A stretch of DNA of 64,000 bases, from positions 352,001 through 416,000 of the forward strand of contig JABHQW010000008.1 in assembly GCA_018696595.1 (NCBI GenBank), given 5' to 3'. Shown one piece after another: positions 13,799-49,090 of this stretch. Position 1 is the first letter of the stretch, and each line of letters begins with the position of its first letter. A program made the position numbers and the translations under genes. The notes under the pieces are model-generated. The model did not search any database. It was not told where the DNA came from and saw only the letters and a list, made by a program, of their open reading frames with translations. Source of the DNA: Candidatus Woesearchaeota archaeon. GTDB taxonomy: Archaea > Nanobdellota > Nanobdellia > Woesearchaeales > GW2011-AR9.

Positions 13799-14974
13799 AT
13801 GTTAAAAAAAAGAGGTTCAGAAGAGAAAGGATTCTTTGCTAATCATAAACTAGCGATTGCTTCAACTACATTAATCGGAACAATCATTGGGGCCGGGATT
13901 TTAGGAATCCCTTACGTTATTGCTAAAACAGGATTTGTTTATGGCTTACTTTTAATTATTCTTTTAGGCGGGGCTTATGTTTTTCTTAATCTTTTTCTGG
14001 GCGAAGTTATTCTGAGAACTAAGAAACAACATCAACTTCCGGGGTATGCGGAAAAGTATTTGGGTAAATGGGGCAAACGACTAATGACTTTGTCAATGTT
14101 TATAGGTCTTTATGGTGCATTAACTGCTTACTTAATTGGAGAAGGTGCAGCATTACATACCATTTTTGGTTGGGGTGTTCCGTTAATGTACACTTTCATC
14201 TTTTTTGCAATAACTGTTTACATTATTTATCGGGGAATAAAAGCAACTGGTAAGGCAGAACTTATTTTGATCTCTTTACTCTTTCTAGTTGTTGTTTTCA
14301 TCGGTCTATTATCCTATAATCAGATTCAGTTTTCTAACTTGGTTCATTTTGATCTCACAAAAATACTTGTGCCTTACGGTGTAATAGTTTTTGCTTTTGT
14401 TGGCTTACCCTCAATTCCAGAAATGCAAGAGGAATTGGGTAGAGAAAAGAAAAAGATGAAAAAAGCAATTCTTGTGGGTTCAGTAATTCCAATTGTTCTT
14501 TACATTGCTTTTTCCTTAATCATTATTGGGATTGTTGGTTTGGAAAACTTTGAACTTTTAGGTCCTAATGAAAGAATTGCGACAATCGCTTTAAGTTTAT
14601 ACTCTAACCAAATCTTGGGGATATTCGCCAATTTGCTAGCAGTTTTAGCGATGTTCACTTCATTCTTAACAATAGGAACTGCCTTAGTTGAGATTTTTGA
14701 GTATGATTATGGTGTTTCTAGAAGGACCTCTTTATTGTTAACTTTTTCATTGCCTCTTCTAATTGTTTTGTTTAAACTCACCTCATTCATCGTTGTTTTA
14801 GGGATTACTGGTGCAATAGCGGGGGGTTTAGATGGTATTTTAGTGATGTTAATGTATTGGAAAGCCAAGAAACTTGGTGATAGAAAACCAGAATATACAA
14901 TGGGGAAACATTACATTTTGGGTGTCTTTTTGATTCTGATGTTTGTTGTTGGGATCGCTTATCAATTTTTCTAA
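13799..14974 (+). CDS. aromatic amino acid permease family (TyrP/Mtr-like) transporter
   Basis: GTIIGAGILGIP TM1 motif, about 11 TMs. Confidence 0.85.
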   Translation: MLKKRGSEEKGFFANHKLAIASTTLIGTIIGAGILGIPYVIAKTGFVYGLLLIILLGGAYVFLNLFLGEVILRTKKQHQLPGYAEKYLGKWGKRLMTLSMFIGLYGALTAYLIGEGAALHTIFGWGVPLMYTFIFFAITVYIIYRGIKATGKAELILISLLFLVVVFIGLLSYNQIQFSNLVHFDLTKILVPYGVIVFAFVGLPSIPEMQEELGREKKKMKKAILVGSVIPIVLYIAFSLIIIGIVGLENFELLGPNERIATIALSLYSNQILGIFANLLAVLAMFTSFLTIGTALVEIFEYDYGVSRRTSLLLTFSLPLLIVLFKLTSFIVVLGITGAIAGGLDGILVMLMYWKAKKLGDRKPEYTMGKHYILGVFLILMFVVGIAYQFF

Positions 14975-15019
14975 AACTTTTCTTTTTGGGTCGTTACTAC
15001 TTAAAGTTAGCAATAGTTA

Positions 15020-15036
15020 CGAAACTTTTATATATT
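15020..15036 (+). promoter_or_regulatory. BRE/TATA promoter of the 15096-19529 gene pair
   Basis: CGAAAC-TTTTTATATA matches the archaeal BRE+TATA pattern. Confidence 0.6.
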
Positions 15037-15095
15037 GGGTGTTACTTTTGAGTAGAAAATAGTCAAAAATCTTATTTTTATGGGGGAAATTTAAA

Positions 15096-16850
15096 ATGAA
15101 TATTAGAAAAATTGGAAGAAATGTTCTTAATGTTAGTAAATATACTGTTGCTGGTGCTACTTTGGGTGCTGGTTTATTTTTTGGTGGTCAAGCTTTAGCT
15201 GAAGAACCAAAAGATGTTGTTGAGCAACCTGACGCTTATGTAGAAGTTCAATCTGAAGTTCAGCCTGAACAAAGAGATCTTTATGATACTCAAACAGCTG
15301 AAGTTGCTGCGCCTCTTGAAGTTACTGTAACTCCTGAAGTTACTAATTATGAAACTCAATCAGCTCCTGAAGTCGTTGCACCTCTTGATGTTCAAACACC
15401 TGATGTTGCTACACCTCTTGAAGTTGCTGTAACTCCTGATACTCCTTCTCCGAGTTTCTCTTGGGGTGATTTGCTGAACGTGAATGGGCAAACTGTTATG
15501 CAAACTCCAACTGTAGAGCCTGTTGCAGAAACTAATCCCGTAGATTACAAGGGAACAACTCCTGCGGTTGCAGATCCGGATGTAGCAATTGTTAATCCTG
15601 CAGAACCCGTTCTAGAACCACAATCTCCTATTCCTGTTAATGAGGATGGAACTGCTTACAAGCTTGGACAAAAACCTGTTGTCGCTGATACTGTTGCAGG
15701 ACCTAATGCTGTTGATTACAAAGGAACAACTCCCGTAGTTGAACCAGCTGTTGCAGATAATCCTGTAGCTCCTTTAGAAGAAAAAGTTGCTGAAGTTAAA
15801 ACAGAAACACCTTCTCATGCTGGGAAATTCTCAGTAAGTGGATGTGAAAAAGGACAAGAAGCTTATTTAGTTGCAACCGAAGACGGAAGTAACTTGAAAG
15901 CAGAATGTAAAACTCCTAAGAAGAAAGGGCCAAGATGTGTTGAACAGTATGAAGGAAATGGTCGATGCATTGAACCCGTTTTAGCAGAATCTCATAATGT
16001 GCTTACTCCTGCTGTAAAAGGATTATGTCCTGGAACAACTCTATGTTATGATAGTTCTGAAGTTGACAATCTTGGTGAACAAATTGCTTTAGTTGCAAGA
16101 GTTTCTGAAGATAATAGAACCTATATCCATCAATTGGATGAATCTGTTAGCCAAAATGGTCAAAATCTTAGTGAGTTAAGTGAAGTTGTTGATCAAAATG
16201 AACAAATTATTGATGAGTTAGATACTGCAGTTGATAAAAACTCTCGTGGTATTGGTTCTCTTGATAAAAAAGTTTCTGATCAATATAAAGTTAAATCTAC
16301 TGATAAAAATAATGTTGAAGTTAACTTAAATCTTAGAGGAACGGTTTCTGCCGGAATTGGTGCTGACTCAGACTCAATTGCTGTTTACATTGAACCTGAA
16401 TTAAGTGTTGGCGGAACTTTCGGAGAACATTTCGGATTATTTGGTTATGTTAACGGAAATATTCCTGCATATGACCCTTCAGAAACTGATAACCATGAAA
16501 ATGATTTAGGAATCATGACTGAAAATGTAGATACTGAAACAAACACTTCTCGAAGAGCTGGAGCTGGTTTAATGGCTAGGTTTCCTGTTGCTGATGGTGC
16601 TGTTACTCCTTATGCTAAAGTAGGAGCTGCTTTTATGCAAACTGAAGCAAGTAAAGATATTTCTCGTAATGGGGAAGAAATTGATGCCCTGTCTGACAAT
16701 TACAATGGCGTTGGTTTAGAAGGCGCATTAGGAATTGACTTTGACTTTGGTCAACCAGGCGGAATTGTTTTAGGTTTAGAAGGAAGAGCAAATTCCTTTG
16801 GTGGCGGATACGGCGCAGGATCTGGAATGTTAGGATACACTTTCAAATAG
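15096..16850 (+). CDS. secreted protein: signal peptide, Pro/Val/Thr-rich repeats, Cys-rich domain, coiled coil, C-terminal putative 8-stranded beta-barrel
   Basis: Signal peptide ending ALA-EE; C-terminal 180 aa show alternating hydrophobic strands ending GMLGYTFK. Confidence 0.8.
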   Translation: MNIRKIGRNVLNVSKYTVAGATLGAGLFFGGQALAEEPKDVVEQPDAYVEVQSEVQPEQRDLYDTQTAEVAAPLEVTVTPEVTNYETQSAPEVVAPLDVQTPDVATPLEVAVTPDTPSPSFSWGDLLNVNGQTVMQTPTVEPVAETNPVDYKGTTPAVADPDVAIVNPAEPVLEPQSPIPVNEDGTAYKLGQKPVVADTVAGPNAVDYKGTTPVVEPAVADNPVAPLEEKVAEVKTETPSHAGKFSVSGCEKGQEAYLVATEDGSNLKAECKTPKKKGPRCVEQYEGNGRCIEPVLAESHNVLTPAVKGLCPGTTLCYDSSEVDNLGEQIALVARVSEDNRTYIHQLDESVSQNGQNLSELSEVVDQNEQIIDELDTAVDKNSRGIGSLDKKVSDQYKVKSTDKNNVEVNLNLRGTVSAGIGADSDSIAVYIEPELSVGGTFGEHFGLFGYVNGNIPAYDPSETDNHENDLGIMTENVDTETNTSRRAGAGLMARFPVADGAVTPYAKVGAAFMQTEASKDISRNGEEIDALSDNYNGVGLEGALGIDFDFGQPGGIVLGLEGRANSFGGGYGAGSGMLGYTFK

Positions 16851-16874
16851 AGTTTGATGTGAGGTAAACTTAAA

Positions 16875-19529
16875 ATGAAAAATACTTTTACTTTTTTTAC
16901 AATTTTCCTATTTGTACTATCTATTGTTCCATTAGCAGCAGCAGCAGATGTTTCTGTTCAAGCTGAATGGTCAGTTAATGGAGAAGCTGCAGGTAAAATA
17001 TTAAATGCTGAAACTGGAGAAGGAACTACTTTCGCAGTGATGGTTAATGCTTTAAATGATAATTTAAACGATTATAACTTCTTTGTTAAAGTTTACGATG
17101 GCAGTTATGATGAGATGGTTAATCCTGGTTGGGAAACTACAAACGTAGAATCTTTCCCTGGCGGAACAACTATGTATACTGTTAATTATAATGCTCCTTT
17201 AACCGAAGGAACTTACTTTATTGTTGCTTCAGCATACTATGCTCAAGAAAACGATGAAGGATTTGATACACTAACATTAATTGTTACAGAAGCTCCTTGT
17301 TTAGATACAGACGATGACGGCGTTTGTGATGAAGATGAAATCTTGGGATGTACAGACACAGATGCAAATAATTACAATCCAAATGCAACTGAAGAAGACG
17401 ACAGTTGTGAATACGATTGTTTAGATTCCGATGGCGATGGTGTTTGTGATGAAGATGAAATCTTAGGGTGTACTGATTCAGAAGCAGAGAATTTTAATCC
17501 AAATGCAACAGAAGAAGATAATAACTGTGAATATGCTTGTACAGATTCTGACAACGATGGTGTTTGTGATGAAGATGATCTTTGTCCAGATGAACCTGGG
17601 CTATTAGATAATAATGGTTGTCCTGAAGAAGTTATTAATGAAGCTCCCATTATTGAAGTTTTTGGAACTAACAAAATTAATGAAATGAGTTCATTAAACT
17701 TAATCGTTGAAATTGAAGATGAGGATATTGTTAACTTAGAAGTTAAGGTTGAAAAATGTGAGATTTATATTTTTGGGCTTTGCTTATTTGCAAGTTACAC
17801 AGATGCTCCTGAAAATTCAGAATTAACTTTTGTTTCTGAAAACAAATATGCTTTTACTTGGACTCCGGATTACCGTTTTGTAAAACATCCTGCAACAGAA
17901 AGATCTATTCGATTAGTTTTTATTGCCGATGACGGAGAAGCAAAAGATTATAATTTACATAAAGTAACTGTTAACGATGTTAATCAATTACCTGTTTTAA
18001 GTTCAGAAGGCGTAGAAGATGTTGATGAAGGAAAAAGCTTTGTTGCTACTTTTACTGCCATTGATGCTGATGAAGAAGACGTCTTGGACTTGGGGATTAT
18101 TTTAATGGGATATGAATTCATGGGTAATGATCTTCCTGATTGGATCTCTATGGAAAGTATTGCAAAGAATACAATTCAATTAACCGTAACTCCTGATTGT
18201 GATAGTGCTGGAGATTACTTCCTTAGATTTACTGCTAACGATGGACTATTCTTGGCGGAACTAATGGAACCATTTACTGTTACCGAAGCTTGTGATGCTC
18301 CAATTCTTGGATGTATGGATGAGTCTGCATTAAACTACAATCCTGAAGCAACCGAAGATGATGAAAGTTGTGAATATACTTGTAGTGATGTGGATAACGA
18401 CGGAGTTTGTGATGAAAATGATCTTTGTCCGCATGAAGTGGGTACTGAGAATAACAAAGGATGTCCTGAAGAACCTGTTGCTGATAATATGGTTCCTGTT
18501 CTAAGAGGATTAATGGATCAATCTGTTTATGCAGAAGAGAAATTAACATTTCAAATTCATGTGACTGATGACAATGATAAAAACATGGACTTAATTGTTG
18601 AAGGACTTCCAGAAGGAGCAGAAGTATTTGCTTCTAATCGGGTTGCACCTTTGCCTTTAAAAAACATCATGCAGAAATTATTTTTGAAAACAGAGTATAA
18701 ACACACTTTTATTTTCAAATGGGTTCCAACAGAAGCACAAGTTGGTGAATACTTAGTAGGATTTACTGCTGACGATGGTTTAGCTAAATCGGAACAAAAG
18801 ACAATCAAAATCACTGTATTAGAACAACCAGTTGAACCTTGTGTTGATACAGATTCTGATGGTATTTGCGACGAAGTTGATCTTTGTCCGTTAGATCCAG
18901 AAGATTTTGATGGTATTGAAGACGAAGATGGTTGTCCTGAAGATGATCCAGTTAACCATGCACCTTTAATCTTATCAAATCCAACTACTGTTGCAACCGA
19001 GAATCATGATTACACTTACCAATTTTTGGCGGAAGATCCAGACGGAGACGAGATAACTGTAACTTTAGTTGACGCTCCTGAAGGGATGACTATGTCTGAA
19101 GATTGGTTAGTTGAATGGATTCCTGAAGATTTAACTAATGGCAAAGTGGCTATTAGTGTAACTGACGGAGAGTTTGTGGTAACACAGAAGTTTACAATTG
19201 GCGTTGCTGAAGCTTACAAGAATGTTAAGCTAGCATCCGTACAATTGGCGGCTGAAGAAGTTGTTGCTGGTGGTTATTTGTCTACTCAAATCAAAGTAGA
19301 AAATAACGGCGAGAAAGATATGGGTGATTTAAAGATTAGTGTGATTGTTCCTGAGCTTGGATTGAAGAAGTCTGTGAGTGAGTTTGACTTGAAACCAGGG
19401 CAAAGTAAGAACAAGAACATTAATCTACAGTTACCTTATTACGCTTACTCTGGTGAGTATCTAGTTAAGGTAAGTGTTAGTAACAGCAATTTCCATGAAC
19501 AAACCTATAGGTTGGTAACAATCTATTAG
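16875..19529 (+). CDS. large secreted Ca-binding surface protein (TSP3-like repeats, Ig/cadherin-like domains, CARDB-like C-terminus)
   Basis: Signal peptide AAA-AD; DxDxDGVCD repeats; three GCxDxxAxNY/FNPxATEDDxSCEY repeats; GAGGT SD. Confidence 0.85.
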   Translation: MKNTFTFFTIFLFVLSIVPLAAAADVSVQAEWSVNGEAAGKILNAETGEGTTFAVMVNALNDNLNDYNFFVKVYDGSYDEMVNPGWETTNVESFPGGTTMYTVNYNAPLTEGTYFIVASAYYAQENDEGFDTLTLIVTEAPCLDTDDDGVCDEDEILGCTDTDANNYNPNATEEDDSCEYDCLDSDGDGVCDEDEILGCTDSEAENFNPNATEEDNNCEYACTDSDNDGVCDEDDLCPDEPGLLDNNGCPEEVINEAPIIEVFGTNKINEMSSLNLIVEIEDEDIVNLEVKVEKCEIYIFGLCLFASYTDAPENSELTFVSENKYAFTWTPDYRFVKHPATERSIRLVFIADDGEAKDYNLHKVTVNDVNQLPVLSSEGVEDVDEGKSFVATFTAIDADEEDVLDLGIILMGYEFMGNDLPDWISMESIAKNTIQLTVTPDCDSAGDYFLRFTANDGLFLAELMEPFTVTEACDAPILGCMDESALNYNPEATEDDESCEYTCSDVDNDGVCDENDLCPHEVGTENNKGCPEEPVADNMVPVLRGLMDQSVYAEEKLTFQIHVTDDNDKNMDLIVEGLPEGAEVFASNRVAPLPLKNIMQKLFLKTEYKHTFIFKWVPTEAQVGEYLVGFTADDGLAKSEQKTIKITVLEQPVEPCVDTDSDGICDEVDLCPLDPEDFDGIEDEDGCPEDDPVNHAPLILSNPTTVATENHDYTYQFLAEDPDGDEITVTLVDAPEGMTMSEDWLVEWIPEDLTNGKVAISVTDGEFVVTQKFTIGVAEAYKNVKLASVQLAAEEVVAGGYLSTQIKVENNGEKDMGDLKISVIVPELGLKKSVSEFDLKPGQSKNKNINLQLPYYAYSGEYLVKVSVSNSNFHEQTYRLVTIY

Positions 19530-19575: not shown

Positions 19576-19675
19576 CTAAACCAACGAAAACTTTATAAAC
19601 CAAAGCGGTTTTAAAGACTAAAACACAAAAAAATAACATTCATAAAAGGATAAATTTTTTTTGGAGGAAGAAAAA

Positions 19676-20926
19676 ATGAAAAAACTTTTAAGTATAATGG
19701 CTTTATTCGTAATTAGCTTATTGACTTTATCAATGGTTAGTGCATTAGATGCAAATGACCTAGTAATTAAGTCTATTGAAGTTAATGGCCACAATGTAGA
19801 AGATGGCGAAGTTCTTGCTGTTGAAGAAGGAGAAACTTTAGATGTTGAAGTTGGCTTATTAGCTAACGCTGGTGCAGAAAATATTGAAGTGGAAGTTGAA
19901 ATTTCAGGTTATGAATACAACGACCAAGAAGATATGGAAGCTACCGCACACATCGATAATATCCAAGCTGGAAATACAAAATATTTTGACTTGGAAGTAA
20001 CTTTGCCTAAGAAATTAGACAAGGATGAATACATGTTAAGAGTTCGTGTAATGGATAAGAATACTGCGGCAATTACCCACAATATTTTATTATCAATCGA
20101 ACCTACAAGACATGGAATCGATATTGCAGACGTTGCTTTATCCCCTGGAGAAACCCAAAAAGCTGGTAGATCTTTTTTAGCTACTGTTCTATTGGAAAAC
20201 TTCGGAGATAAAACTGAGAAAGACGTTAAAGTTGAAGTTGCAATTCCTGCATTAGGAGTTAAAGCTACTGAATACGTTGACGTTGTTGTAACCGATAACA
20301 ATAATGTAGATTATGAAGACGTTCCTGAAATGTTCTTACCTCTTCCTGCTACTGCAGAAGCTGGTGCTTACGACATGATCGTTACAGTTAAATACGATGA
20401 CTTAAGGGAAACTGTTAGCCAAACTTACAAAGTTAATGTTTTAGCTAACGAACTATTCCAAAAGTCTGACAAGTTAGTTTTAGCTGTTGGTCCGGAAAGT
20501 CAAACTGTTGCTGCTGGTAACACTGCTAGTTATGCTGTTGCATTAACAAACGCAGGATCAACTTCTAAAGCTTATGTTTTAGATGTAGTTACTGGTGACT
20601 GGGCTACCGCAACTGTTAGTGATGCTTTAGTTGTTTTAGAACCTGGAAAGAACAAAGTTGTTCAAGTAGATGTAACCGCTGCTAGTAATGCTGTTGAAGG
20701 TCAACACGTTGCAAGCGTTGCTATTATGTCTGGTGACGAAGTTCTTGAAACCATCGTTCTAAAAGCAAACGTAGCTGGCACCGCTAGTGAGAGTTTTAGC
20801 TTAAGAAACGGTTTGGAAATCGCTTTAATCGTCTTAGTTGTTCTATTAGTAATCATTGGTTTAATCATTGGTTTCAGTAGATTAAGAAAAGACGACGAAG
20901 ACGAAGAAGAACAAACTTACTACTAA
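19676..20926 (+). CDS. S-layer/CARDB-like Ig-domain protein with C-terminal TM and acidic tail
   Basis: ATG at 19676 after GGAGG; signal peptide; beta-rich domains; TM followed by RKDDEDEEEQTYY. Confidence 0.8.
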   Translation: MKKLLSIMALFVISLLTLSMVSALDANDLVIKSIEVNGHNVEDGEVLAVEEGETLDVEVGLLANAGAENIEVEVEISGYEYNDQEDMEATAHIDNIQAGNTKYFDLEVTLPKKLDKDEYMLRVRVMDKNTAAITHNILLSIEPTRHGIDIADVALSPGETQKAGRSFLATVLLENFGDKTEKDVKVEVAIPALGVKATEYVDVVVTDNNNVDYEDVPEMFLPLPATAEAGAYDMIVTVKYDDLRETVSQTYKVNVLANELFQKSDKLVLAVGPESQTVAAGNTASYAVALTNAGSTSKAYVLDVVTGDWATATVSDALVVLEPGKNKVVQVDVTAASNAVEGQHVASVAIMSGDEVLETIVLKANVAGTASESFSLRNGLEIALIVLVVLLVIIGLIIGFSRLRKDDEDEEEQTYY

Positions 20927-22977: not shown

Positions 22978-23883
22978 TTAAAAGGTAGTTCCAACAAATC
23001 CACCTAAGTTGTAATCAAGAGTTCCTTCATTTCCAACTTCAGTTAGGTCTGCAGCAGCTCCAATTTGGTATTTGTCCATTAATGTTACTCCTGCTCTTAA
23101 TTTCTGAACACTAAACTGGTGGCCAGTTTCTCCAACACTAGTTAGGTCCTCTAAGTTTATTAGCAAATCAACTTTTTCTCCTAACTCTGGGCTGTAGCTT
23201 AGGTTTACTACAAACTCTCCGTCTGGGCTTTCCATTGTTTTTACTGTTGCTAAGGCATACACTGCAAAATCTCCTAGTGCTTTGAAGTATTGCAAACCTG
23301 CTCTTGGAATTACTCCCATTCCTGGTGCTGCCTGTACTTCTCCTACAATGTCTAAGCCATCAACTAAGTTATAGCTCAAGTCCATTAAACCAAAAAAGCT
23401 TACTTCTCCTTCATAGTCTGAAGTGGTCATTTGTCTCAAGAACAAATTGGTTTTTGGAGCGATACTTGTGGACACTTTTGTGTCTAAGGTTGTTGATTGG
23501 TGTCCTGCTGATAATTCTACTGATCCGCTTGCTGGGGTTTCATCTGCTAGGCCAACTCCTGGTGCTAATATTGCACAAGCCACTCCTGCTGCATAAGCTA
23601 AGTTTCTGGGGGTGGCTAATCTTTGTAATGCTTCTTTTGCTTCTGCAGTTATTTTCTCTAAGATAGTTGGTTCTCTAACTAATGCGATCCCTCTTTTATC
23701 GCTAATAACTTTTCCTTCTCCTGCAACTTCTTGTATAATTCTCTCTTCTGCAGTAAGTGGTGCTTCAGCAACTTTTGCTTCTTCATCAATATCTTCTGGA
23801 AGATATAATCTTCCTTCGGTTTTCCAATATCTTTTTCCTCCAGTTTCAATAAGTTCTGAAGGTAAAATCATTTCATTTGTCAT
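22978..23883 (-). CDS. putative ~12-stranded beta-barrel protein with extended N-terminal leader and internal signal peptide
   Basis: About 90-aa leader, then RNLAYAAGVACAILAPGVGLA-DE, then amphipathic strands ending GGFVGTTF; AGGAGG SD. Confidence 0.8.
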   Translation of the reverse strand: MTNEMILPSELIETGGKRYWKTEGRLYLPEDIDEEAKVAEAPLTAEERIIQEVAGEGKVISDKRGIALVREPTILEKITAEAKEALQRLATPRNLAYAAGVACAILAPGVGLADETPASGSVELSAGHQSTTLDTKVSTSIAPKTNLFLRQMTTSDYEGEVSFFGLMDLSYNLVDGLDIVGEVQAAPGMGVIPRAGLQYFKALGDFAVYALATVKTMESPDGEFVVNLSYSPELGEKVDLLINLEDLTSVGETGHQFSVQKLRAGVTLMDKYQIGAAADLTEVGNEGTLDYNLGGFVGTTF

Positions 23884-29313: not shown

Positions 29314-31077
29314 ATGAAGAAAAGAATAGCTATAATCGATAAGGAGAAATGTCATCCTAGTGAATGTGGAGATTATCTTTGTGCTAAATTGTGCCCTGTT
29401 AATAGAACTGGAACAGATTGTGTCTTGCCACATGAAATACATAAAAAAGCAAAGATTGACGAATTACTTTGTACTGGCTGTTCTATTTGCTCAAACAGAT
29501 GTCCTTATCAAGCAATCCAAATTATTAATCTTCCAGAAGCATTAAACAAAGAACCAGTTCATCGGTTCGGAGAGAATGCTTTTGAATTATTTTCTTTACC
29601 AACACCAATCTTTGGTCAAGTTACAGGAATCTTGGGAAAGAATGGTATTGGGAAAACTACTGCTTTACAAATTCTGGCAGGATTATTAAAGCCAAACTTA
29701 GGCAACTATGAAAAAGAAACTGATTTTAAGGATGTTATCAATTATTTCAAAGGCAGTGAGACTCAGAAATTCTTAATGAAAATGCATGTTGGCGATATCA
29801 AATTATCTTACAAATTGCAACAAGTTGATTTGATTGCTAAACAGTTTACTGGAACCGTTCGTGAGTTATTAGAAAAAGTTGATGAAAAAAAACAATTAAA
29901 TGAAGTTGCTCAAGAATTACAATTAACAAGATTCTTAGATACTCCAGTTAACAAAATTTCTGGTGGAGAATTACAACGAGTAGCAATTGCTGCTTCTGTA
30001 TTAAAGAAAGCTAACATTTATTTCTTTGACGAACCTAGCTCTTATCTTGATATTAAGCAAAGGGTTAACGTTTCTAAATTTATTAGAAATCTAGCAGATG
30101 AAGATACTTCAATCATCGTTATTGAACACGATTTAATTATTCTTGATTACATGACAGATCTATTGAATTTAATGTACGGGCAAGAATCTGCTTATGGTAT
30201 TGTTTCTGGGATCAAGAATTCTAGGGAAGGAATCAATGCTTTCTTGGAAGGTTTTCTGAAAGAAGAAAATATTCGTTTTAGGTCTTATCCTATTAAGTTT
30301 GAGAAAGTTCAAGATAGACAAGTGGGAACTCAACAAAAACTAATTTCTTGGAAACATTTAAGCAAGAAGTTAGGGAACTTTATTTTGGAATCTGAATCTG
30401 GAGAATTATATAAAAACGAGATTATTGGTGTTTTAGGGGAAAATGGAATTGGTAAAACTAGTTTTGTAAAAGTATTAGCGGGATTAATTAAACCAGACTC
30501 TGGCGAGATTGATTCTGAAATTAAAGTTGCTTACAAACCTCAATACTTAGAAACTGCTTCAGATGAATTAGTAATGCAATATTTAGATGATGCAGTTCAA
30601 CAGTATCAAAACCAATTAATTAAACCATTAGATATGGAAAGATTAATGATGAAAAAATTGTCTGAACTTTCTGGTGGAGAATTACAAAAAGTATCTATTG
30701 TTAAATGTCTGAGTGAAGATGCAGAATTGTTTCTTCTGGATGAGCCTTCTGCTTATCTAGACGTTGAACAACGATTATTAATCTCTAAAGTAATTAAAAG
30801 TTTAACTGCAGAAAGAGAGATTACTGTTTTAGTGGTAGATCACGATTTAATGTTTTTAGATTATTTGTCTGATCGACTTGCTGTATTTACAGGAGAACCC
30901 GCTAAATCTGGTTTATTACAAGGTCCTTTTGATATGGTTGAAGGAATGAATTTGTTTTTAGAAGAGTTAGGCATTTCATTACGTAGAGATCCAAATTCGC
31001 ATCGGCCTCGGATTAACAAAGCCGGAAGTGTAAAGGATCGAGAACAACGTGCAGAAGGAAAGTTGTATTATAACTAA
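29314..31077 (+). CDS. rli: ribosome recycling ATPase ABCE1/RLI
   Basis: N-terminal FeS Cys motifs; two ABC domains (GKNGIGKT, GENGIGKT, SGGELQ). Confidence 0.96.
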   Translation: MKKRIAIIDKEKCHPSECGDYLCAKLCPVNRTGTDCVLPHEIHKKAKIDELLCTGCSICSNRCPYQAIQIINLPEALNKEPVHRFGENAFELFSLPTPIFGQVTGILGKNGIGKTTALQILAGLLKPNLGNYEKETDFKDVINYFKGSETQKFLMKMHVGDIKLSYKLQQVDLIAKQFTGTVRELLEKVDEKKQLNEVAQELQLTRFLDTPVNKISGGELQRVAIAASVLKKANIYFFDEPSSYLDIKQRVNVSKFIRNLADEDTSIIVIEHDLIILDYMTDLLNLMYGQESAYGIVSGIKNSREGINAFLEGFLKEENIRFRSYPIKFEKVQDRQVGTQQKLISWKHLSKKLGNFILESESGELYKNEIIGVLGENGIGKTSFVKVLAGLIKPDSGEIDSEIKVAYKPQYLETASDELVMQYLDDAVQQYQNQLIKPLDMERLMMKKLSELSGGELQKVSIVKCLSEDAELFLLDEPSAYLDVEQRLLISKVIKSLTAEREITVLVVDHDLMFLDYLSDRLAVFTGEPAKSGLLQGPFDMVEGMNLFLEELGISLRRDPNSHRPRINKAGSVKDREQRAEGKLYYN

Positions 31078-32108
31078 GAACTAGTTCTCATTGCATTATA
31101 ATCTACTAGATTAAGAACATAATCAGAAACTTTCCAATTGATTCTTGTAAACTCTCCAAAATGATCTCCACCGGCTTGGGCTGATGCTTCTTTATCAAGA
31201 AGTGCAATTTCTACTTCTGGGGCAACAATCTCAGAAACATCACGATGACGATATTCTCCACTCCAAATACTTTTGGTGTGGGCAACAAATCTTGGGATCA
31301 TCGAGTAACGATTACCTCCAACTGCCCTAATGTGCATTTTCCCTTCTGATCTTGCTTTTTTTGCATAAGGAAAACCCACAAAATTATAACCAAAATAAGG
31401 GGTCGTTCCTGCTACTAAAGCATGGATTTGATTTTCTTGTAAGAATCTTTCCCCATCTCCAAGAGGAAGCCTCATAAATTCTATGTCTTCTTCAAAAATT
31501 TCAGCAAGTTCTGCCCCTTGTGGAAAACTAATTTCAAATTTTAGTTTTTTACCAAAAAAGATTTCTGTAGCAGAAGAAGGGATTGTGCTAAAGTATCCTA
31601 CTAAACCGTTCAATGGGCTTTGTTTGTACTTTTTTAAAATGATTCCATCCCAACCAGCCCCGGTTAACATAGAATAAGTTTTCTCTTTTTCTCCTTGAGG
31701 GGTGGTTCCAGTAATCTCAATTAACGGGACTTGTATTGTTGGTAATTCATTAACATCTGTTTCTAAAATCATTTCTAATTGTTCTAAATGGTCTTTACCT
31801 GCACCTAATTCATAAGAAATAGCATTACCCGTTCCCAATTTTAATATTGCAAATAATTGTTTGTTAAATGACAAACCTAATTCTTCACATAAAAGAATGA
31901 ATTTATTACTTTCATATCTGATTGTTCCATCTCCTCCTCCAAGAGTAATTACTTGTGGTTTATCCTGTAAAGTTTTTCTTCTAGGATAATTTCCTGAATA
32001 TATTTTAACTCTATAGTCTTCAGCAAATCTTTGCTCAATTGCATTAATTATCTTCGGGGTGAATCTTCCAGCTCTTGGATTTAATTTAGCTACTAGGCTT
32101 TCTACCAT
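31074..32108 (-). CDS. diacylglycerol/lipid kinase family protein
   Basis: GGGDGT and LGTGNA motifs; GD near the C-terminus. Confidence 0.75.
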   Translation of the reverse strand: MVESLVAKLNPRAGRFTPKIINAIEQRFAEDYRVKIYSGNYPRRKTLQDKPQVITLGGGDGTIRYESNKFILLCEELGLSFNKQLFAILKLGTGNAISYELGAGKDHLEQLEMILETDVNELPTIQVPLIEITGTTPQGEKEKTYSMLTGAGWDGIILKKYKQSPLNGLVGYFSTIPSSATEIFFGKKLKFEISFPQGAELAEIFEEDIEFMRLPLGDGERFLQENQIHALVAGTTPYFGYNFVGFPYAKKARSEGKMHIRAVGGNRYSMIPRFVAHTKSIWSGEYRHRDVSEIVAPEVEIALLDKEASAQAGGDHFGEFTRINWKVSDYVLNLVDYNAMRTSS

Positions 32109-32591: not shown

Positions 32592-33362
32592 TTATTTAAA
32601 TATCTTTCTCCAATCTTCCTTATAAAACTTAACAAAGAGATATAGTGCAACAATTACCATAATCAAACTAAACCATTGGCCAATCGTTAATTTGAACCAT
32701 AAAACGTCTTCGCGATAGAAATCTACTAAGAATCTTCCTAATCCTTCCCAAAAAACGAAGTTCAGAAATATAAACCCTGGCTTAAATGATTTCCAGAATG
32801 TTAGCAAGAAAAGCCAACCAGTAACAATAAATCTTTTCCCTGCTGCGTATAATGTAGATGGGTGCCTACAACCATCATATCCTTTAAACAATACGCACCA
32901 CTTACCTTGGAATGGTCTACCAACTAATTCTCCATTAATGAAATTAGCAATTCTTCCCAAAGCTAAAGCAAACAAGGCGGGAATTGACATAGCATCAGCC
33001 AATTTCCAGAAATTAAATCTATGTTTCTTACAATAAATGTAAGCTGCAACTACAATTCCTACAAATCCACCGTGAAAACTCATCCCTCCTTCCCAAAATT
33101 TGAGAAAGTTAAATGGATTTGACAAGTAGTAACTTGGTTGCCAAAAAACTTCAAATACTCTTGATCCGATTAATACTCCGACCATCAACCAAAATGCAAA
33201 ATCCCAGATCTGTTCTTTGTTTAATTCTAGTTTGCCTTTTTTTCTAAGATAATATAACCAAGCAATAGACAGAAAGAATCCCAGGACATACATTAGCCCG
33301 TACCATCTGATTTCTAACGGCCCTAAGGAAAGTAATGTTGGGTTAAGATTGTGAATGTACAT
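32592..33362 (-). CDS. lgt: prolipoprotein diacylglyceryl transferase
   Basis: IRWYGLMY, GGMSFHGG, GRIANFINGE..GR, HPSTLY, RFLVDFYR. Confidence 0.95.
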   Translation of the reverse strand: MYIHNLNPTLLSLGPLEIRWYGLMYVLGFFLSIAWLYYLRKKGKLELNKEQIWDFAFWLMVGVLIGSRVFEVFWQPSYYLSNPFNFLKFWEGGMSFHGGFVGIVVAAYIYCKKHRFNFWKLADAMSIPALFALALGRIANFINGELVGRPFQGKWCVLFKGYDGCRHPSTLYAAGKRFIVTGWLFLLTFWKSFKPGFIFLNFVFWEGLGRFLVDFYREDVLWFKLTIGQWFSLIMVIVALYLFVKFYKEDWRKIFK

Positions 33363-35710: not shown

Positions 35711-37435
35711 ATGACGGCTCACCATAAATCAGAAGACTTAAATTTACATTCTTTAAAGGCTATTTCTCCAATTGATGGTAGACATAGATTAATGACCGAA
35801 CCATTGGCAGATTGGTTCTCAGAATTTGCATTGTTTAAGTACAGGCTTCATATGGAAGTTGAGTACTTAATTGCATTATCGGAAAATGAACCGTTCAATG
35901 CAGTAAGAAATTTCACTTTAGAAGAAAAAGATTTCTTAAAAGGAATTGTGCGTAACTTTACTTTACAGGATGCACAAGTAATTCAGAACATTGATCGGTT
36001 TGGTTATCAAGAAATGAAACCGACTAACCATGATTGTAAATCTGTAGAATATTTTCTTAAAAGAAAACTTGAAGAAAGTTCATTAACAGATGTAAAAGAA
36101 TTTGTTCATTTTGGTTTAACTTCAGAAGATATGAATAATATTGCTCACAATTGTATGATTAATGGAGCATTAAATCAACATTATATCCCAAATTTAGTTT
36201 CTTTACTGGATGAATTAAAAGGACTAGCAGAATCAGAAAAGTCTACCGCTATGTTAAGTAGAACTCATGGCCAACCGGCAACTCCAACAACAGTTGGTAA
36301 AGAGATGGCTAATTATCTTGACAGATTAAGAAAACAGTTAATCAAACTTAAACAATTTAAATTACCTGCAAAATGTAATGGTGCTGTTGGCAATCATGCT
36401 GCCCAATATTTTGCTGCAGGAGAAGTTAATTGGATGTCTTTTACTGAAAAATTTATCACAGATCTTGGTTTTGAAGCAAATTTAATGAGTACACAAATTG
36501 AGTTTCATGATGGTTTAACAGAATTGTTTAGCATTATGATTAGTATCAATAATATTCTAAAAGATTTAGCGATGGACTTTTGGACTTATATCTCTTTGGG
36601 ATATTTACAACAACAAAAGATTATTCATGAAGTTGGTAGTTCAACAATGCCACATAAGATTAATCCTTGGCGGATGGAAGTTGCTGAAGGTAGTGTAGCA
36701 GAAGCAAACGCTAAGTTGATTGGATTTATCAACAAGTTGCAAGTTTCTAGATTACAAAGAGATTTGTCGGATCATGAAGCACAAAGAGCGATAGGAGTTG
36801 GGTTTGCTCATTCTTATTTAGTAGTTCTACATGTTTTAGAAGAATTAGAAAGATTACAGGTAAATAAGGAAAAAGTTTCTTCTGAACTGAAAGATTTTGG
36901 TAGTATTTTAACAGAAGCTGTTCAGACTTTACTGAGAAAAGAAGGGTACGAACAGCCTTATGAATTAATGAAAGATTTTTCTCGGGGCAGACATTGTACT
37001 GTTCAAGAACTGCACACTTTTGTTGACCAGTTAGATATTAAAGAAGAAACTAAATTGAAACTAAAACAATTAAGACCAGAGAATTATATTGGGTTGAGTA
37101 AAGAATTAACAGAGTTAGCAATTGGAAAATGGGAAGAGTTCAAAGAAGAATATGAAGAACCGTTACCTGCAGTAAGAAAAGTCTTCTTAGCCCCAGAAGT
37201 AAAGAACTTTGAGATTATCGAAAGATTAAAACAAATGGAGATTGAAGTTCTCGATGAACTTACTGAAGAAAAAGGTATTTTATACATTGGTCCAATCAAT
37301 GCTCAGTTTGAAGAAGCAAAAGAGAAAGGCTTTATTTGTGTGAATTACGATCCTAATCGAAAAACTAAGGCTGATTACAACATTGTTGATCTGGCAGAAT
37401 TGCCAGACTTGATTAATTCTTTTGGAGGTGACTAA
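35711..37435 (+). CDS. purB: adenylosuccinate lyase with degenerate HAD-like C-terminal extension
   Basis: AISPIDGR, HFGLTSED, RTHGQPA, GSSTMPHKINP. Confidence 0.95.
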   Translation: MTAHHKSEDLNLHSLKAISPIDGRHRLMTEPLADWFSEFALFKYRLHMEVEYLIALSENEPFNAVRNFTLEEKDFLKGIVRNFTLQDAQVIQNIDRFGYQEMKPTNHDCKSVEYFLKRKLEESSLTDVKEFVHFGLTSEDMNNIAHNCMINGALNQHYIPNLVSLLDELKGLAESEKSTAMLSRTHGQPATPTTVGKEMANYLDRLRKQLIKLKQFKLPAKCNGAVGNHAAQYFAAGEVNWMSFTEKFITDLGFEANLMSTQIEFHDGLTELFSIMISINNILKDLAMDFWTYISLGYLQQQKIIHEVGSSTMPHKINPWRMEVAEGSVAEANAKLIGFINKLQVSRLQRDLSDHEAQRAIGVGFAHSYLVVLHVLEELERLQVNKEKVSSELKDFGSILTEAVQTLLRKEGYEQPYELMKDFSRGRHCTVQELHTFVDQLDIKEETKLKLKQLRPENYIGLSKELTELAIGKWEEFKEEYEEPLPAVRKVFLAPEVKNFEIIERLKQMEIEVLDELTEEKGILYIGPINAQFEEAKEKGFICVNYDPNRKTKADYNIVDLAELPDLINSFGGD

Positions 37436-37436
37436 A

Positions 37437-44444: not shown

Positions 44445-45749
44445 GTGATGTTCATGAGAAAAATAAATTCATTAATATTGGTTGTTTGTTTTGCTTTAGT
44501 TATGGCACTACCTTTAGTTTCTGCTGCAACTAATTATGGTTTTCCTAATGTTGAAACAACATTATTATCTCAAGATCCCGATCCTGTAGAACCAGGACAA
44601 ATTGTGAAAGTTAAATTCAAAATTGAAAATGATGGAAAAAAAACGGGTGAAGATGTAATTGTTAAAGTTCTTCCTAAATTTCCTTTTTCTAGTTATGATG
44701 GCATTGTTGAAAAAAATATCGGAAAACTTCTTGCTTCTTCTGGTACGGATGCAACAGTTGTTGAGTTTAGATTAAAGGTTGATGAAAAAGCAGCCGAAGG
44801 AGATACAGAATTAGAACTTATTGTTTTAATAGATGAGGGCTTAGGAAAAAGTTACACTAATGATGAGTTTTTAATAAATATTCAAACCCATGATGCGGTT
44901 TTAGACATTACTTCAATTAGTTCAAACCCAAAACAAATTGCTCCTGGAGAAAGTGCAGAAGTAAACATTATGGTTAAGAACTTAGCCGACTCATTGTTAA
45001 AAGATATCAAATTTAAATTAGATTTCGATGATGACGATTTACCTTTAGCACCTTATCAATCCTCTTCCGAAAGAAGAATTTCTCAATTACAATCTAATTA
45101 TCAAAATAGTCTAAGCTTTAATGTTATTGCTGATCCTGAGGCCACTCCTGGTCTATACAAAGTACCCGTAACAATAACCTATAATGATGAGAATGGCAAT
45201 GCTTATTCTGTAAGTGACATTTTAGCTGTTACAGTGGGAGAAATTCCTAAACTTAAAGCTTACATTAAGAAAAGTGCAGTTTTACAAGCAAAATCAGAAG
45301 GAAAAATTACTTTAGAAATTGCTAATTCTGGTAGTTCTAACATTAAGTTTTTAGAAATTACTTTATTGCCTTCTGACGATTATCAATTAGTTTCTACTAC
45401 TAATTACTTTTATATGGGGGATGTTGATTCTGATGACACTGAAAGTGAGGAAGTTGATATCTACATTAACAAGAAGGTTGAAACTTTGCATGTTCCAATG
45501 CTTTTGAAGTATACTGATGCAAACAACAAACCTTTTCAGCAACAATTTGATCTAGAAATGAATCTTTATTCTTCTTCCGAATTAAAGAAGTTTGGATTGG
45601 TTGAAAGTAGTAGTGCGGGAATTTACTTTTTGATAATTGTGTTGGGCGTTATTGGTTTTATTCTTTACAGAAGTTATAAGAAAGATCCTGACAAGTTTTC
45701 TAGGAGATGGAAGAGAAGATTATCTTTCAGATTCAGAAAAAAGAAATAA
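44445..45749 (+). CDS. COG1361 S-layer-domain protein
   Basis: Signal peptide, QDPDPVEPG, Ig-like repeats, C-terminal TM with basic tail; upstream of ABC permeases. Confidence 0.85.
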   Translation: MMFMRKINSLILVVCFALVMALPLVSAATNYGFPNVETTLLSQDPDPVEPGQIVKVKFKIENDGKKTGEDVIVKVLPKFPFSSYDGIVEKNIGKLLASSGTDATVVEFRLKVDEKAAEGDTELELIVLIDEGLGKSYTNDEFLINIQTHDAVLDITSISSNPKQIAPGESAEVNIMVKNLADSLLKDIKFKLDFDDDDLPLAPYQSSSERRISQLQSNYQNSLSFNVIADPEATPGLYKVPVTITYNDENGNAYSVSDILAVTVGEIPKLKAYIKKSAVLQAKSEGKITLEIANSGSSNIKFLEITLLPSDDYQLVSTTNYFYMGDVDSDDTESEEVDIYINKKVETLHVPMLLKYTDANNKPFQQQFDLEMNLYSSSELKKFGLVESSSAGIYFLIIVLGVIGFILYRSYKKDPDKFSRRWKRRLSFRFRKKK

Positions 45750-47013: not shown

Positions 47014-47014
47014 A

Positions 47015-48226: not shown

Positions 48227-48266
48227 AAAGTTAAATAAAATATAAAAGAAGGAATAACAAAATATT

Positions 48267-48974: not shown

Positions 48975-49090
48975 TTTTTTTTCTAGTTTTAAGTGTTTTG
49001 TGATGGTTAAATAGTAAAATATCTTTTAAACTAGCTAAATCTTTATAAATCATGATATGGAGTAACAGGTAAAAGGGTGAGGTGAGCTTC

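What the first reader, a model, noticed from the sequence alone, without database searches (positions are those of the whole stretch)
16310..16850. OmpA/OmpW-like 8-stranded beta-barrel domain in an archaeal secreted protein
The last ~180 aa resolve into about eight amphipathic strands with short turns and long loops (VNLNLRGTVSAGIG, VYIEPELSVGGTF, HFGLFGYVNGNI, RAGAGLMARFPV, VTPYAKVGAAFM, GVGLEGALGIDFDF, IVLGLEGRANSF, GSGMLGYTF). The end matches the bacterial beta-signal pattern (hydrophobic-G-Y-x-F). Integral beta-barrels are not an established feature of archaeal envelopes.
Basis: partly seen in the sequence, partly recalled or inferred. Interest (0 to 1): 0.88.

Follow-up and report, generated by a model that had tools for sequence, protein, structure and literature searches.

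The report
Bacterial-type membrane barrel in an archaeon
A tiny marine symbiont-type archaeon (Woesearchaeota) has a conserved gene for a secreted, stalked protein whose tail is predicted to fold like the eight-stranded barrels of bacterial outer membranes, a protein class textbooks limit to bacteria and organelles, so it is unclear which membrane it sits in and how it gets there.

Summary
Bases 16310-16850 encode the last ~180 residues of a 584-aa ORF (15096-16850, +). Its parts are a Sec signal peptide, a P/V/T/E-rich linker, a Cys module, a heptad coiled coil and a C-terminal barrel.

AlphaFold2 on a 15-sequence family alignment gives pLDDT 79 and pTM 0.71. The best structural matches are OmpA (Z 14.3, 134 of 137 residues), OmpW, OprF-N, PagL and NspA. 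Family members hit Pfam OMP_b-brl (best 3.4e-6), and the family profile's best PDB hit is OmpX.

Strand pattern, loop asymmetry, aromatic ends and a C-terminal G-Y-x-F motif fit a transmembrane barrel. F is terminal in 10 of 15 relatives; this protein ends F-K.

The gene is native. It lies on a 428-kb archaeal contig and is syntenic in several Woesearchaeota MAGs. The barrel is under purifying selection, yet the protein is far more diverged than its flanks. No Omp85/BamA was found in six carrier genomes.

Membrane insertion is inferred, not shown. The target (own outer layer, host membrane or own cell membrane) is open. This scan has noted similar barrels in other DPANN genomes. I found no report in the searchable literature.

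The parts
15027..15034 (+). TATA-like TTTATATA box 62-69 nt upstream of the ATG, plus a G-run (15082-15086) about 10 nt before the start
   Evidence: Read directly from the sequence printed. Inference only; no archaeal promoter tool was available.
15096..16850 (+). Whole gene, 584 aa: secreted stalked protein with a C-terminal OMP-type barrel
   Evidence: ORF. Positional orthologues occur in other Woesearchaeota genomes. Near-identical copies occur in seawater metagenomes of at least 14 studies.
15096..15200 (+). Sec-type signal peptide (residues 1-35; basic n-region, G/A/L-rich h-region, A-L-A then E-E)
   Evidence: Sequence reading. Relatives have the same type of N-terminus ending A-x-A.
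15201..15815 (+). P/V/T/E-rich low-complexity linker with short repeats (residues 36-240); absent from the ~400-500-aa relatives
   Evidence: Composition V17 P14 A10 T10 E10 %. The family alignment starts after it.
15843..16055 (+). Cys module (residues ~250-320) with four family-conserved Cys in the pattern C..G-N-G-x-C ... C-P-G ... C-Y-D
   Evidence: Alignment A1. Small beta-rich domain with pLDDT 64-77. No Pfam hit.
16062..16286 (+). Heptad coiled coil (residues 323-397). The a positions are I/V/L; the d positions alternate Leu and Asn (N354, N368, N382)
   Evidence: Sequence reading. Helix in the AF2 model. Three-copy fold: ipSAE 0.64 against best control 0.00, in-register interface over residues 323-397.
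16308..16847 (+). 8-stranded OmpA/OmpX-type beta-barrel (residues 405-584), ending G-Y-T-F-K
   Evidence: AF2 pLDDT 79, pTM 0.71. OmpA Z 14.3, OmpW 13.9. Foldseek OmpA/Ail/OmpX. Atlas TM 0.62-0.77. Strand faces. Family links to PF13505 and OmpX. dN/dS about 0.13-0.25 in relatives.
16875..19529 (+). Downstream gene, 24 nt after the stop with a GAGGT 9 nt before its ATG: 884-aa secreted protein with Asp/Cys-rich TSP3-like repeats and Ig-like domains; no membrane anchor seen
   Evidence: Conserved in position but only ~30-40% identical in relatives.
19661..20926 (+). 421-aa CARDB/NPCBM_assoc surface protein with signal peptide and a C-terminal TM helix plus acidic tail. It is the conserved member of the cassette (55-71% identity in relatives)

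Best explanation
The gene encodes a secreted, probably trimeric, stalked envelope protein. Its C-terminal 180 residues form a bacterial-type (OmpA/OmpX-like) 8-stranded transmembrane beta-barrel that acts as a lipid-membrane anchor. After Sec export and signal-peptide cleavage, the coiled coil (residues 323-397) assembles in register. Each chain's barrel then inserts from the stalk side: both barrel termini and the three short turns face the stalk, and the long polar loops L2 and L3 cross to the far side. An 8-stranded barrel has no lumen for a helix, so the stalk stays on the side of insertion. That is the topology of an OmpM/SlpA-type tether, not of an autotransporter. No Omp85/BamA is encoded, so insertion must be spontaneous or use an unknown factor. 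I place the barrel in a lipid layer outside the archaeon's own cytoplasmic membrane: either an outer membrane of its own (about 0.30) or the membrane of a host cell (about 0.25). In that reading, the Cys module and linker hold on to the archaeon's surface proteins encoded in the same cassette. Shown by computation: the gene, its archaeal context, the fold, the family, selection, and the absence of Omp85. Inferred: membrane insertion, trimer state, which membrane, and the partners.
For: Fold.

Sequence links to OMP_b-brl and OmpX.

Transmembrane-type features:
- eight strands of 9-14 residues with one V/L/I/F/A face and one E/N/R/S/T/G face;
- Phe or Tyr at strand ends on both rims;
- short turns on the N/C-terminal side and long loops opposite;
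- 17% Gly.

A C-terminal aromatic motif is kept across relatives of 17-34% identity.

The gene is native and functional:
- the contig is 428 kb and archaeal;
- there is positional orthology in at least 6 genomes;
- barrel dN/dS is ~0.13-0.25 (dS near saturation);
- near-identical copies occur in seawater metagenomes of at least 14 studies.

Coiled coil: the heptad has Asn at alternate d positions. The three-copy fold gives ipSAE 0.64 against best control 0.00; the runs agree in at least 67% of contacts and partner pLDDT is at least 63. In calibration the mark was reached by 20 of 30 solved homo-pairs and 1 of 23 single chains, but that calibration used two copies, so the copy number is not determined.

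Surface or host-contact role:
- the gene sits in a cassette with adhesin-like Ig/TSP3/PKD proteins and a TM-anchored CARDB protein;
- in a same-genus genome the flanking genes are 81-92% identical, but this protein aligns at only 36% over 84 residues.

In three other genera a bitopic membrane protein with a Cys-containing ectodomain is encoded immediately upstream. It is a candidate inner anchor.

Two DPANN-type lineages (ARMAN, Altiarchaeum) are reported to have two membranes (PMC4243693).
Against:
- This protein itself has no Pfam hit.
- The profile-to-OmpX E-value is only 0.035, and hhalign to the OMP_b-brl protein is weak.
- Soluble 8-stranded barrels (avidins, designed barrels) also align at Z 10-13.
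- Omp85/BamA, universal where such barrels are known, is missing from this genome (97% complete) and from five other carriers.
- The family is patchy: 11 of 113 genomes and 4 of 58 genera of the GTDB family by barrel profile. That argues against a core envelope part.
- The neighbouring surface protein uses an ordinary C-terminal TM helix, as in single-membrane archaea.
- Phe is not the last residue in this copy.
- Nothing shows that Woesearchaeota have a second membrane, and no host is known.
Confidence: 0.52

Rival explanations
1. The barrel anchors the protein in the archaeon's own cytoplasmic membrane, inserted from outside after Sec export. The stalk and Cys head would project outward, like the head-stalk-anchor order of trimeric autotransporter adhesins but in a cell with one membrane. 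The long loops would end up in the cytoplasm.
For: - The domain order signal peptide, head, coiled coil, barrel and Asn at d positions resemble trimeric adhesin stalks.
- The stalk is on the insertion side, so no second membrane is needed.
- No Omp85 was found.
- The neighbouring surface protein is anchored in the cytoplasmic membrane.
Against: - To my knowledge, no beta-barrel anchor is known in any cytoplasmic membrane.
- Two acidic loops of about 24 and 32 residues would have to cross an energised membrane unaided.
- Archaeal surface proteins normally use TM helices or lipid anchors, as the neighbour does.
- In three genera a separate bitopic membrane protein is encoded next to the gene. 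That fits better if the barrel protein needs a link back to the cell membrane.
Confidence: 0.15
2. The domain is a soluble or peripheral 8-stranded barrel (avidin-, lipocalin- or Cap15-like, perhaps binding a ligand or lipid) at the tip of a secreted stalk. The OMP resemblance would be convergent, or an over-reading by the predictors.
For: - Soluble 8-stranded barrels also align: designed barrels Z 11-13, avidins Z 10-11.
- This protein has no Pfam hit.
- Alternating patterns alone cannot tell which face is inside.
- No outer membrane or BAM is known for the organism.
Against: - OMP matches rank first and cover far more residues: 126-169 aligned for natural OMPs against about 100-108 for soluble barrels.
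- All Foldseek matches with probability near 1 are OMPs.
- Family members hit PF13505, Autotransporter, Ail_Lom and OmpA_membrane, and the best PDB profile hit is OmpX, aligned to the very C-terminus.
- The polar face is rich in Gly and paired Glu/Arg, as in OmpA/OmpX interiors. The other face is almost purely V/L/I/F/A with aromatic residues at both rims.
- There is a conserved terminal G-Y-x-F motif.
Confidence: 0.15
3. The gene is bacterial contamination of the assembly, or a recently transferred, decaying bacterial OMP gene without function in the archaeon.
For: - The fold and signal peptide look bacterial.
- The barrel has a direct, weak phmmer hit to a true OMP_b-brl protein whose neighbours are bacterial-type ABC-transporter genes.
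Against: - The gene lies inside a 428-kb contig between archaeal core genes.
- It is in the same slot in several independently assembled Woesearchaeota genomes.
- GC content is like the surroundings.
- The open frame is intact and the barrel is under purifying selection.
- In a search of 1.84 billion representatives, 11 of the 12 hits were this gene or archaeal-cassette relatives. Only one was a standard OMP, at E 2e-5.
Confidence: 0.03

Closest known systems
Small 8-stranded outer-membrane barrels of diderm bacteria: OmpA N-domain, OmpX/Ail, NspA, OmpW, OprF-N, PagL (Pfam clan MBB, PF13505 OMP_b-brl)
   Same: - Predicted fold: Z 13-14.3, 126-158 residues aligned.
- Eight strands, short turns on the terminal side, long loops opposite, aromatic rims, Gly-rich, C-terminal G-Y-x-F-type motif.
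- Weak sequence links.
   Different: - Encoded by an archaeon with no Omp85/BamA.
- The barrel is at the C-terminus of a 584-aa protein, behind a linker, a Cys module and a coiled coil.
- This copy has no significant Pfam match and ends F-K.
OmpM (diderm Firmicutes) and SlpA (Deinococcus) outer-membrane tethers (PMC10628300, PMC9388160)
   Same: - Order of parts: N-terminal binding region, trimeric coiled-coil stalk, C-terminal beta-barrel.
- The stalk is on the side from which the barrel inserts.
- Predicted in-register three-chain coiled coil.
   Different: - No SLH domain and no peptidoglycan to bind.
- Barrel of 8 strands per chain, not a large porin barrel, so probably no channel.
- The organism is not known to have an outer membrane.
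Trimeric autotransporter adhesins (type Vc; YadA, EibD)
   Same: - Signal peptide, head, coiled-coil stalk with Asn at d positions, C-terminal barrel anchor.
- Adhesin-like gene neighbourhood.
   Different: - In trimeric autotransporters each chain gives 4 strands to one shared 12-stranded barrel through which the stalk passes. Here each chain has a complete 8-stranded barrel with no room for a helix.
- The best-run interface listed no barrel residues.
- No YadA_anchor hit.
OMP-like 8-stranded barrels noted earlier by this scan in other DPANN/Woesearchaeota genomes (e1-3769418, e1-4875818, e1-965742 and others; AI notes)
   Same: - Same kind of finding: exported archaeal proteins ending in an OmpA/OmpX-like barrel.
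- They are often next to a membrane-anchored spacer protein or Ig/PKD proteins.
- No BAM.
   Different: No shared sequence words with this family. The Cys module plus coiled-coil architecture and this genomic slot appear to be a separate family.

Membership tests
Small 8-stranded OM beta-barrels (Pfam OMP_b-brl PF13505 / MBB clan: OmpA-N, OmpX, Ail, NspA, OmpW) | Closed antiparallel 8-stranded barrel | tested here: met
   Predicted only. AF2 pLDDT 79, pTM 0.71. OmpA Z 14.3 with 134 of 137 residues aligned at rmsd 2.9; OmpW Z 13.9 with 158 aligned; matches span model residues 7-185. Foldseek probability 1.0.
Small 8-stranded OM beta-barrels (Pfam OMP_b-brl PF13505 / MBB clan: OmpA-N, OmpX, Ail, NspA, OmpW) | Significant match to the family's sequence model | tested here: inconclusive
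   - This protein: no Pfam hit even at E 10, and no PF13505 match in the genome.
- Relatives: 3 of 15 hit PF13505, best 3.4e-6.
- Family profile against OmpX: E 0.035.
- phmmer hit at 2.2e-5 to a protein that is PF13505 at 3.2e-21.
Small 8-stranded OM beta-barrels (Pfam OMP_b-brl PF13505 / MBB clan: OmpA-N, OmpX, Ail, NspA, OmpW) | Lipid-facing hydrophobic belt with aromatic girdles; short turns on the N/C side and long loops opposite | tested here: met
   From sequence and strand register only. Hydrophobic faces read V-V-L-L-G-V, V-I-P-L-V-G-F, A-A-L-A-F, V-L-G-L-I-F and I-L-L-G-A. Phe or Tyr sit at both strand ends. Turns are 3-7 residues; loops reach about 32. It was not measured in 3-D because no coordinates were available.
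Small 8-stranded OM beta-barrels (Pfam OMP_b-brl PF13505 / MBB clan: OmpA-N, OmpX, Ail, NspA, OmpW) | C-terminal beta-signal ending in an aromatic residue | tested here: inconclusive
   This copy ends G-Y-T-F-K, with Phe penultimate. Ten of 15 aligned relatives end in Phe; the others carry short extensions or end in Tyr.
Small 8-stranded OM beta-barrels (Pfam OMP_b-brl PF13505 / MBB clan: OmpA-N, OmpX, Ail, NspA, OmpW) | Assembly by an Omp85/BamA insertase | tested here: not met
   PF01103 was not found in this genome (97% complete) or in 5 other carrier genomes (94-97% complete). All 7 diderm control bacteria scored above the cut-off.
Small 8-stranded OM beta-barrels (Pfam OMP_b-brl PF13505 / MBB clan: OmpA-N, OmpX, Ail, NspA, OmpW) | Residence in an outer membrane | not testable with these tools
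   Needs cryo-ET, fractionation or proteomics of the organism.
Trimeric autotransporter adhesins (type Vc) | Shared 12-stranded barrel made of 4 strands per chain, with the stalk passing through it | tested here: not met
   Each chain has 8 strands of its own. No barrel residues were listed in the best-run trimer interface. No YadA_anchor or other Pfam hit.
Trimeric autotransporter adhesins (type Vc) | Head, coiled-coil stalk (often Asn at d), then C-terminal anchor, in that order | tested here: met
   Domain order. The d positions alternate Leu and Asn (N354, N368, N382). Three-copy fold: ipSAE 0.64 against control 0.00; the copy number itself was not tested.
OmpM / SlpA-type outer-membrane tethers | N-terminal SLH domain binding the cell wall | tested here: not met
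   No SLH or other wall-binding Pfam domain. The N-terminal parts are a low-complexity linker and a novel Cys module.
OmpM / SlpA-type outer-membrane tethers | Coiled-coil stalk followed by a C-terminal barrel, with the stalk on the insertion side | tested here: met
   However, the barrel has 8 strands, not a large porin barrel.

The most novel reading that the evidence does not exclude
This Woesearchaeota lineage has a real second (outer) lipid membrane that carries bacterial-type beta-barrel proteins assembled without Omp85/BamA. The stalked protein would be its tether to the cell body. The other terminal-Phe candidates in the genome (window 22978-23883 with its paralogue, and a 661-aa stalked protein) would be further outer-membrane proteins. 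They would be the first archaeal OMPs and a BAM-independent route of barrel assembly in cells.
Probability: 0.27. Interest if true: 0.95.

Novelty: new variant of a known kind. Interest (0 to 1): 0.8.

Why it matters
Transmembrane beta-barrels of this type are treated as a hallmark of bacterial outer membranes and of the organelles derived from them, and their assembly is thought to depend on Omp85/BamA. A native, selected, syntenic gene family for such a barrel in archaea that lack Omp85 leaves three options, and each would be new:
- Some DPANN archaea have an outer membrane with OMPs.
- They plant barrels into a host's membrane as an attachment or harpoon device.
- Barrels can serve as anchors in a cytoplasmic membrane.

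It also gives a simple test case for BAM-independent barrel insertion into archaeal lipids. It offers a concrete molecular handle (an antigen or marker) for finding how uncultured marine Woesearchaeota contact other cells.

Tried and rejected
- Pfam and PDB sequence searches with the protein itself gave nothing useful; only coiled-coil noise such as Fib_alpha and reovirus sigma-1.
- The word-indexed homologue search found only the protein itself and a few relatives.
- The search for related loci with alignment A1 failed because no stretch was conserved enough. I used the conserved neighbour protein instead.
- Model coordinates are not exposed to scripts. I could therefore not measure belt thickness or side-chain direction in 3-D.
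- Expression: no RNA holder was listed in either look-up.
- Laying contigs of four seawater runs showed near-identical copies plus one ~88% variant over the Cys module. This was too little variation to map diversity onto loops.
- The upstream bitopic membrane protein seen in other genera was not found in this genome with that query.
- A crude genome-wide strand-pattern scan was unspecific; DnaJ scored high.
- The second candidate barrel family (window 22978-23883) had no significant Pfam or PDB hit even as a 10-sequence profile. It stays a candidate only.
- hhalign of the family against the single OMP_b-brl protein was weak (E 0.016, probability 2.8).
- Contamination and recent transfer were considered and rejected on synteny, contig size and selection.
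- An archaeosortase-type C-terminal sorting signal was rejected because there is no C-terminal TM helix.
- An autotransporter mechanism was rejected because an 8-stranded barrel has no lumen for the stalk.
- Literature searches for beta-barrel or OMP proteins in DPANN/Woesearchaeota found no report of this. There was one remark on a possible PopA relative in Altiarchaeales.
Full report
**What is there.** The flagged bases 16310-16850 are the 3' end of one ORF, 15096-16850 on the + strand, 584 aa.

The window is archaeal. It carries aIF5B, the RLI ATPase, an archaeal-type GluRS and SecD, and geranylgeranyl reductase and TrmB. It lies at 352-416 kb of a 428-kb contig in a 1.19-Mb genome rated 97% complete. 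Public relatives of a neighbouring gene are titled Candidatus Woesearchaeota or Nanoarchaeia archaeon. GC content is even across the locus.

**Anatomy of the protein.** Residue ranges are.
- Residues 1-35: a Sec-type signal peptide ending A-L-A before E-E.
- Residues 36-240: a P/V/T/E-rich repeat linker that the relatives lack.
- Residues ~250-320: a small Cys module. Four Cys are conserved in the family in the pattern C..G-N-G-x-C ... C-P-G ... C-Y-D.
- Residues 323-397: a regular heptad helix. Its a positions are I/V/L and its d positions alternate Leu and Asn (N354, N368, N382).

**The eight strands.** In each membrane-length strand one face is V/L/I/F/A(G) and the other is E/N/R/S/T/G. Phe or Tyr sit at both ends of the strands.

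The connections on the N/C-terminal side are 3-7 residues long. Those on the far side include polar loops of about 32 and 24 residues. This is the loop asymmetry typical of outer-membrane proteins.

In 10 of 15 aligned relatives Phe is the final residue.

**Fold.**
- With a 15-sequence family alignment the barrel alone gives pLDDT 79 and pTM 0.71.
- An aligner that does not depend on Foldseek ranks these first, all spanning model residues 7-185:
  - OmpA: Z 14.3, 134 of 137 residues, rmsd 2.9
  - a designed transmembrane barrel: Z 14.1
  - OmpW: Z 13.9, 158 aligned
  - OprF-N: Z 13.8
  - PagL: Z 13.7
  - NspA: Z 13.0
- Soluble 8-stranded barrels follow at Z 10-13, with only about 100-108 residues aligned.
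- Foldseek gives OmpA, Ail, NspA and OmpX at probability 1.0.
- The independent ESM Atlas model matches OMP_b-brl clusters at TM 0.62-0.77.

**Sequence links.** These are weak but all point the same way.
- This protein has no Pfam hit.
- Three of 15 relatives hit PF13505 (best 3.4e-6). Others hit the Autotransporter, Ail_Lom and OmpA_membrane models.
- The family profile's best PDB hit is OmpX (E 0.035), aligned through to the terminal G-Y-x-F.
- A search of 1.84 billion representatives with the barrel gave 12 hits. Eleven are this gene or cassette relatives. One (E 2.2e-5) is a true OMP_b-brl protein, PF13505 at 3.2e-21.

I conclude that the domain is very probably a distant member of the small outer-membrane-barrel superfamily.

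**The gene is native, conserved and fast-evolving.** Relatives of 400-540 aa share the architecture of signal peptide, Cys module, helical region and barrel.

They occupy the same slot in several independently assembled Woesearchaeota genomes. The gene order is RNA cyclase, amino-acid permease, (in some genomes) a bitopic membrane protein, the barrel protein, a 570-1190-aa Ig/TSP3/PKD protein, a ~420-aa CARDB protein, and geranylgeranyl reductase.

By barrel profile the family occurs in 11 of 113 genomes and 4 of 58 genera of the GTDB family. With the longer profile it was found in 7 of 35 genomes of that family and in none of 24 other families of the order.

In a same-genus genome the flanking housekeeping proteins are 81-92% identical. 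The barrel protein aligns at only 36% over 84 residues, and the downstream Ig-like protein at 32%.

Within another genus the barrel has dN/dS of about 0.13-0.25, lower than the rest of the protein in two of three pairs. dS is near saturation, so these values are rough.

Near-identical copies of this gene occur in seawater metagenomes from at least 14 studies. Contamination or a decaying transferred gene is therefore excluded in practice.

**Assembly machinery.** No Omp85/BamA (PF01103) was found in this genome or in five other carrier genomes of 94-97% completeness. All seven diderm control bacteria scored above the cut-off.

**Stalk.** Three copies of residues 322-584 fold with ipSAE 0.64 against a best control of 0.00. 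The runs agree in at least 67% of contacts and the partner pLDDT is at least 63. In calibration the mark was reached by 20 of 30 solved homo-pairs and 1 of 23 single chains.

The interface is an in-register heptad stripe over residues 323-397. No barrel residues were listed in it. This supports a parallel homo-oligomeric coiled coil. The number three was imposed by me and is supported only by the Asn-at-d pattern, which from general knowledge is typical of trimeric adhesin stalks.

In most relatives the helical region is about twice as long. It carries a conserved Cys at its start and another just before the barrel. It may therefore be a disulfide-stapled hairpin rather than one long helix. 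I did not test this.

**Mechanism.** The barrel's two termini and its short turns are on the stalk side, and an 8-stranded barrel has no lumen. The stalk must therefore stay on the side from which the barrel inserts. That is the topology of OmpM/SlpA-type tethers (PMC10628300, PMC9388160), not of autotransporters.

I therefore read the protein as a stalked anchor or tether whose barrel sits in a lipid layer.

Which layer is open. My odds are:
- own outer membrane: about 0.30
- host-cell membrane: about 0.25
- own cytoplasmic membrane, inserted from outside: about 0.15
- not membrane-embedded at all: about 0.15

For an own outer membrane:
- Other candidates with a signal peptide and an aromatic C-terminus exist in the genome.
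- Double membranes are reported in ARMAN and Altiarchaeum (PMC4243693).

For a host membrane:
- DPANN archaea are generally thought to be symbionts (PMC8421398).
- The cassette is adhesin-like and hypervariable.
- The family is patchy.

Against any core envelope role:
- The distribution is patchy.
- The neighbouring surface protein has an ordinary C-terminal TM anchor.

From general knowledge, small barrels such as OmpA, OmpX and PagP can fold into thin or curved bilayers without BAM. BAM-free insertion is therefore possible in principle.

**Comparison and novelty.** The fold is a known kind. The domain of life, the lack of BAM and the architecture of Cys module, coiled coil and barrel are new. 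I found no report of such barrels in Woesearchaeota in the searchable literature. One paper mentions a possible distant PopA relative in Altiarchaeales.

This scan's earlier AI notes describe similar OmpA/OmpX-like barrels in at least eight other DPANN genomes. Those notes share no sequence words with this family, so this looks like a further, separate family of the same phenomenon.

**Verdict.** Membrane residence and location are unproven. I rate interest at 0.8.

Noticed in passing
window 22978-23883 (-) and G000:C3:28860-29600 (L032:2861-3601, -): A second, unrelated family of candidate barrels. The two paralogues are 44% identical and each lies divergent from a TrmB-type regulator gene. 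Orthologues of ~200-215 aa were found in 18 of 301 genomes across many families of the order; those read have clean signal peptides and most end in Phe. There is no significant Pfam or PDB hit; only weak hints to Legionella_OMP and BBP2, and language-model hits to DUF2490 and CopB.
   Followed up: partly
G000:C3:336476-338461 (L031:3477-5462, +), 13.5 kb before the window: A 661-aa protein with a signal peptide, a beta-rich head, a ~170-aa helical stalk and a ~190-aa strand-rich tail ending Q-A-T-W. The architecture is similar to the finding's. The Atlas model of the tail matches parts of porin, usher and OEP37-type barrels at TM 0.5-0.7, but the model's own confidence is low (pLDDT 0.44).
   Followed up: partly
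window 32592-33362 (-): A clear prolipoprotein diacylglyceryl transferase (Lgt, PF01790, E 8.5e-65) in an archaeal genome. It sits next to a cupredoxin protein and a DAG-kinase-like gene (31074-32108).
   Followed up: partly
window 45799-48974 (+): Two adjacent MacB_PCD/FtsX permease genes followed by an ABC ATPase. This is the two-permease layout of LolCDE-type systems. A CARDB surface protein (44445-45749) precedes them.
   Followed up: partly
L004:6392-7972, L003:4391-6802, L035:9612-12059, L056:1565-4327: In other genera, a 526-920-aa gene sits directly upstream of the barrel gene. The two copies read (L004, L003) are bitopic: a large cytoplasmic N-part with coiled coil, one TM helix and a Cys-containing ectodomain with a conserved end. 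It is a candidate inner-membrane partner. It was not found in this genome, where the barrel protein instead has a 200-aa N-terminal linker.
   Followed up: partly
window 13799-19529 compared with L034 (same-genus genome): A hypervariable slot. The amino-acid permease (45% identity), the barrel protein and the Ig/TSP3 protein (32%) are far more diverged than the flanking Trm1, DUF1846 and RNA cyclase genes (81-92%).
   Followed up: partly
window 16875-19529 (+): An 884-aa secreted protein with about six Asp-rich, Cys-containing repeats of the type D-x-D-x-D-G-V-C-D-E-D (thrombospondin type 3-like, probably Ca-binding), plus He_PIG/Big_9 Ig domains. No membrane anchor was seen.
   Followed up: no
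window 37422-39698 (+): Adenylosuccinate synthase fused to a C-terminal HAD-type phosphatase domain (758 aa).
   Followed up: no
window 49082-50695 (+): A 537-aa protein with a DsbA/Rcas_1661-type thioredoxin-like domain. It fits extracytoplasmic disulfide formation, which is relevant to the Cys modules of the cassette proteins.
   Followed up: no
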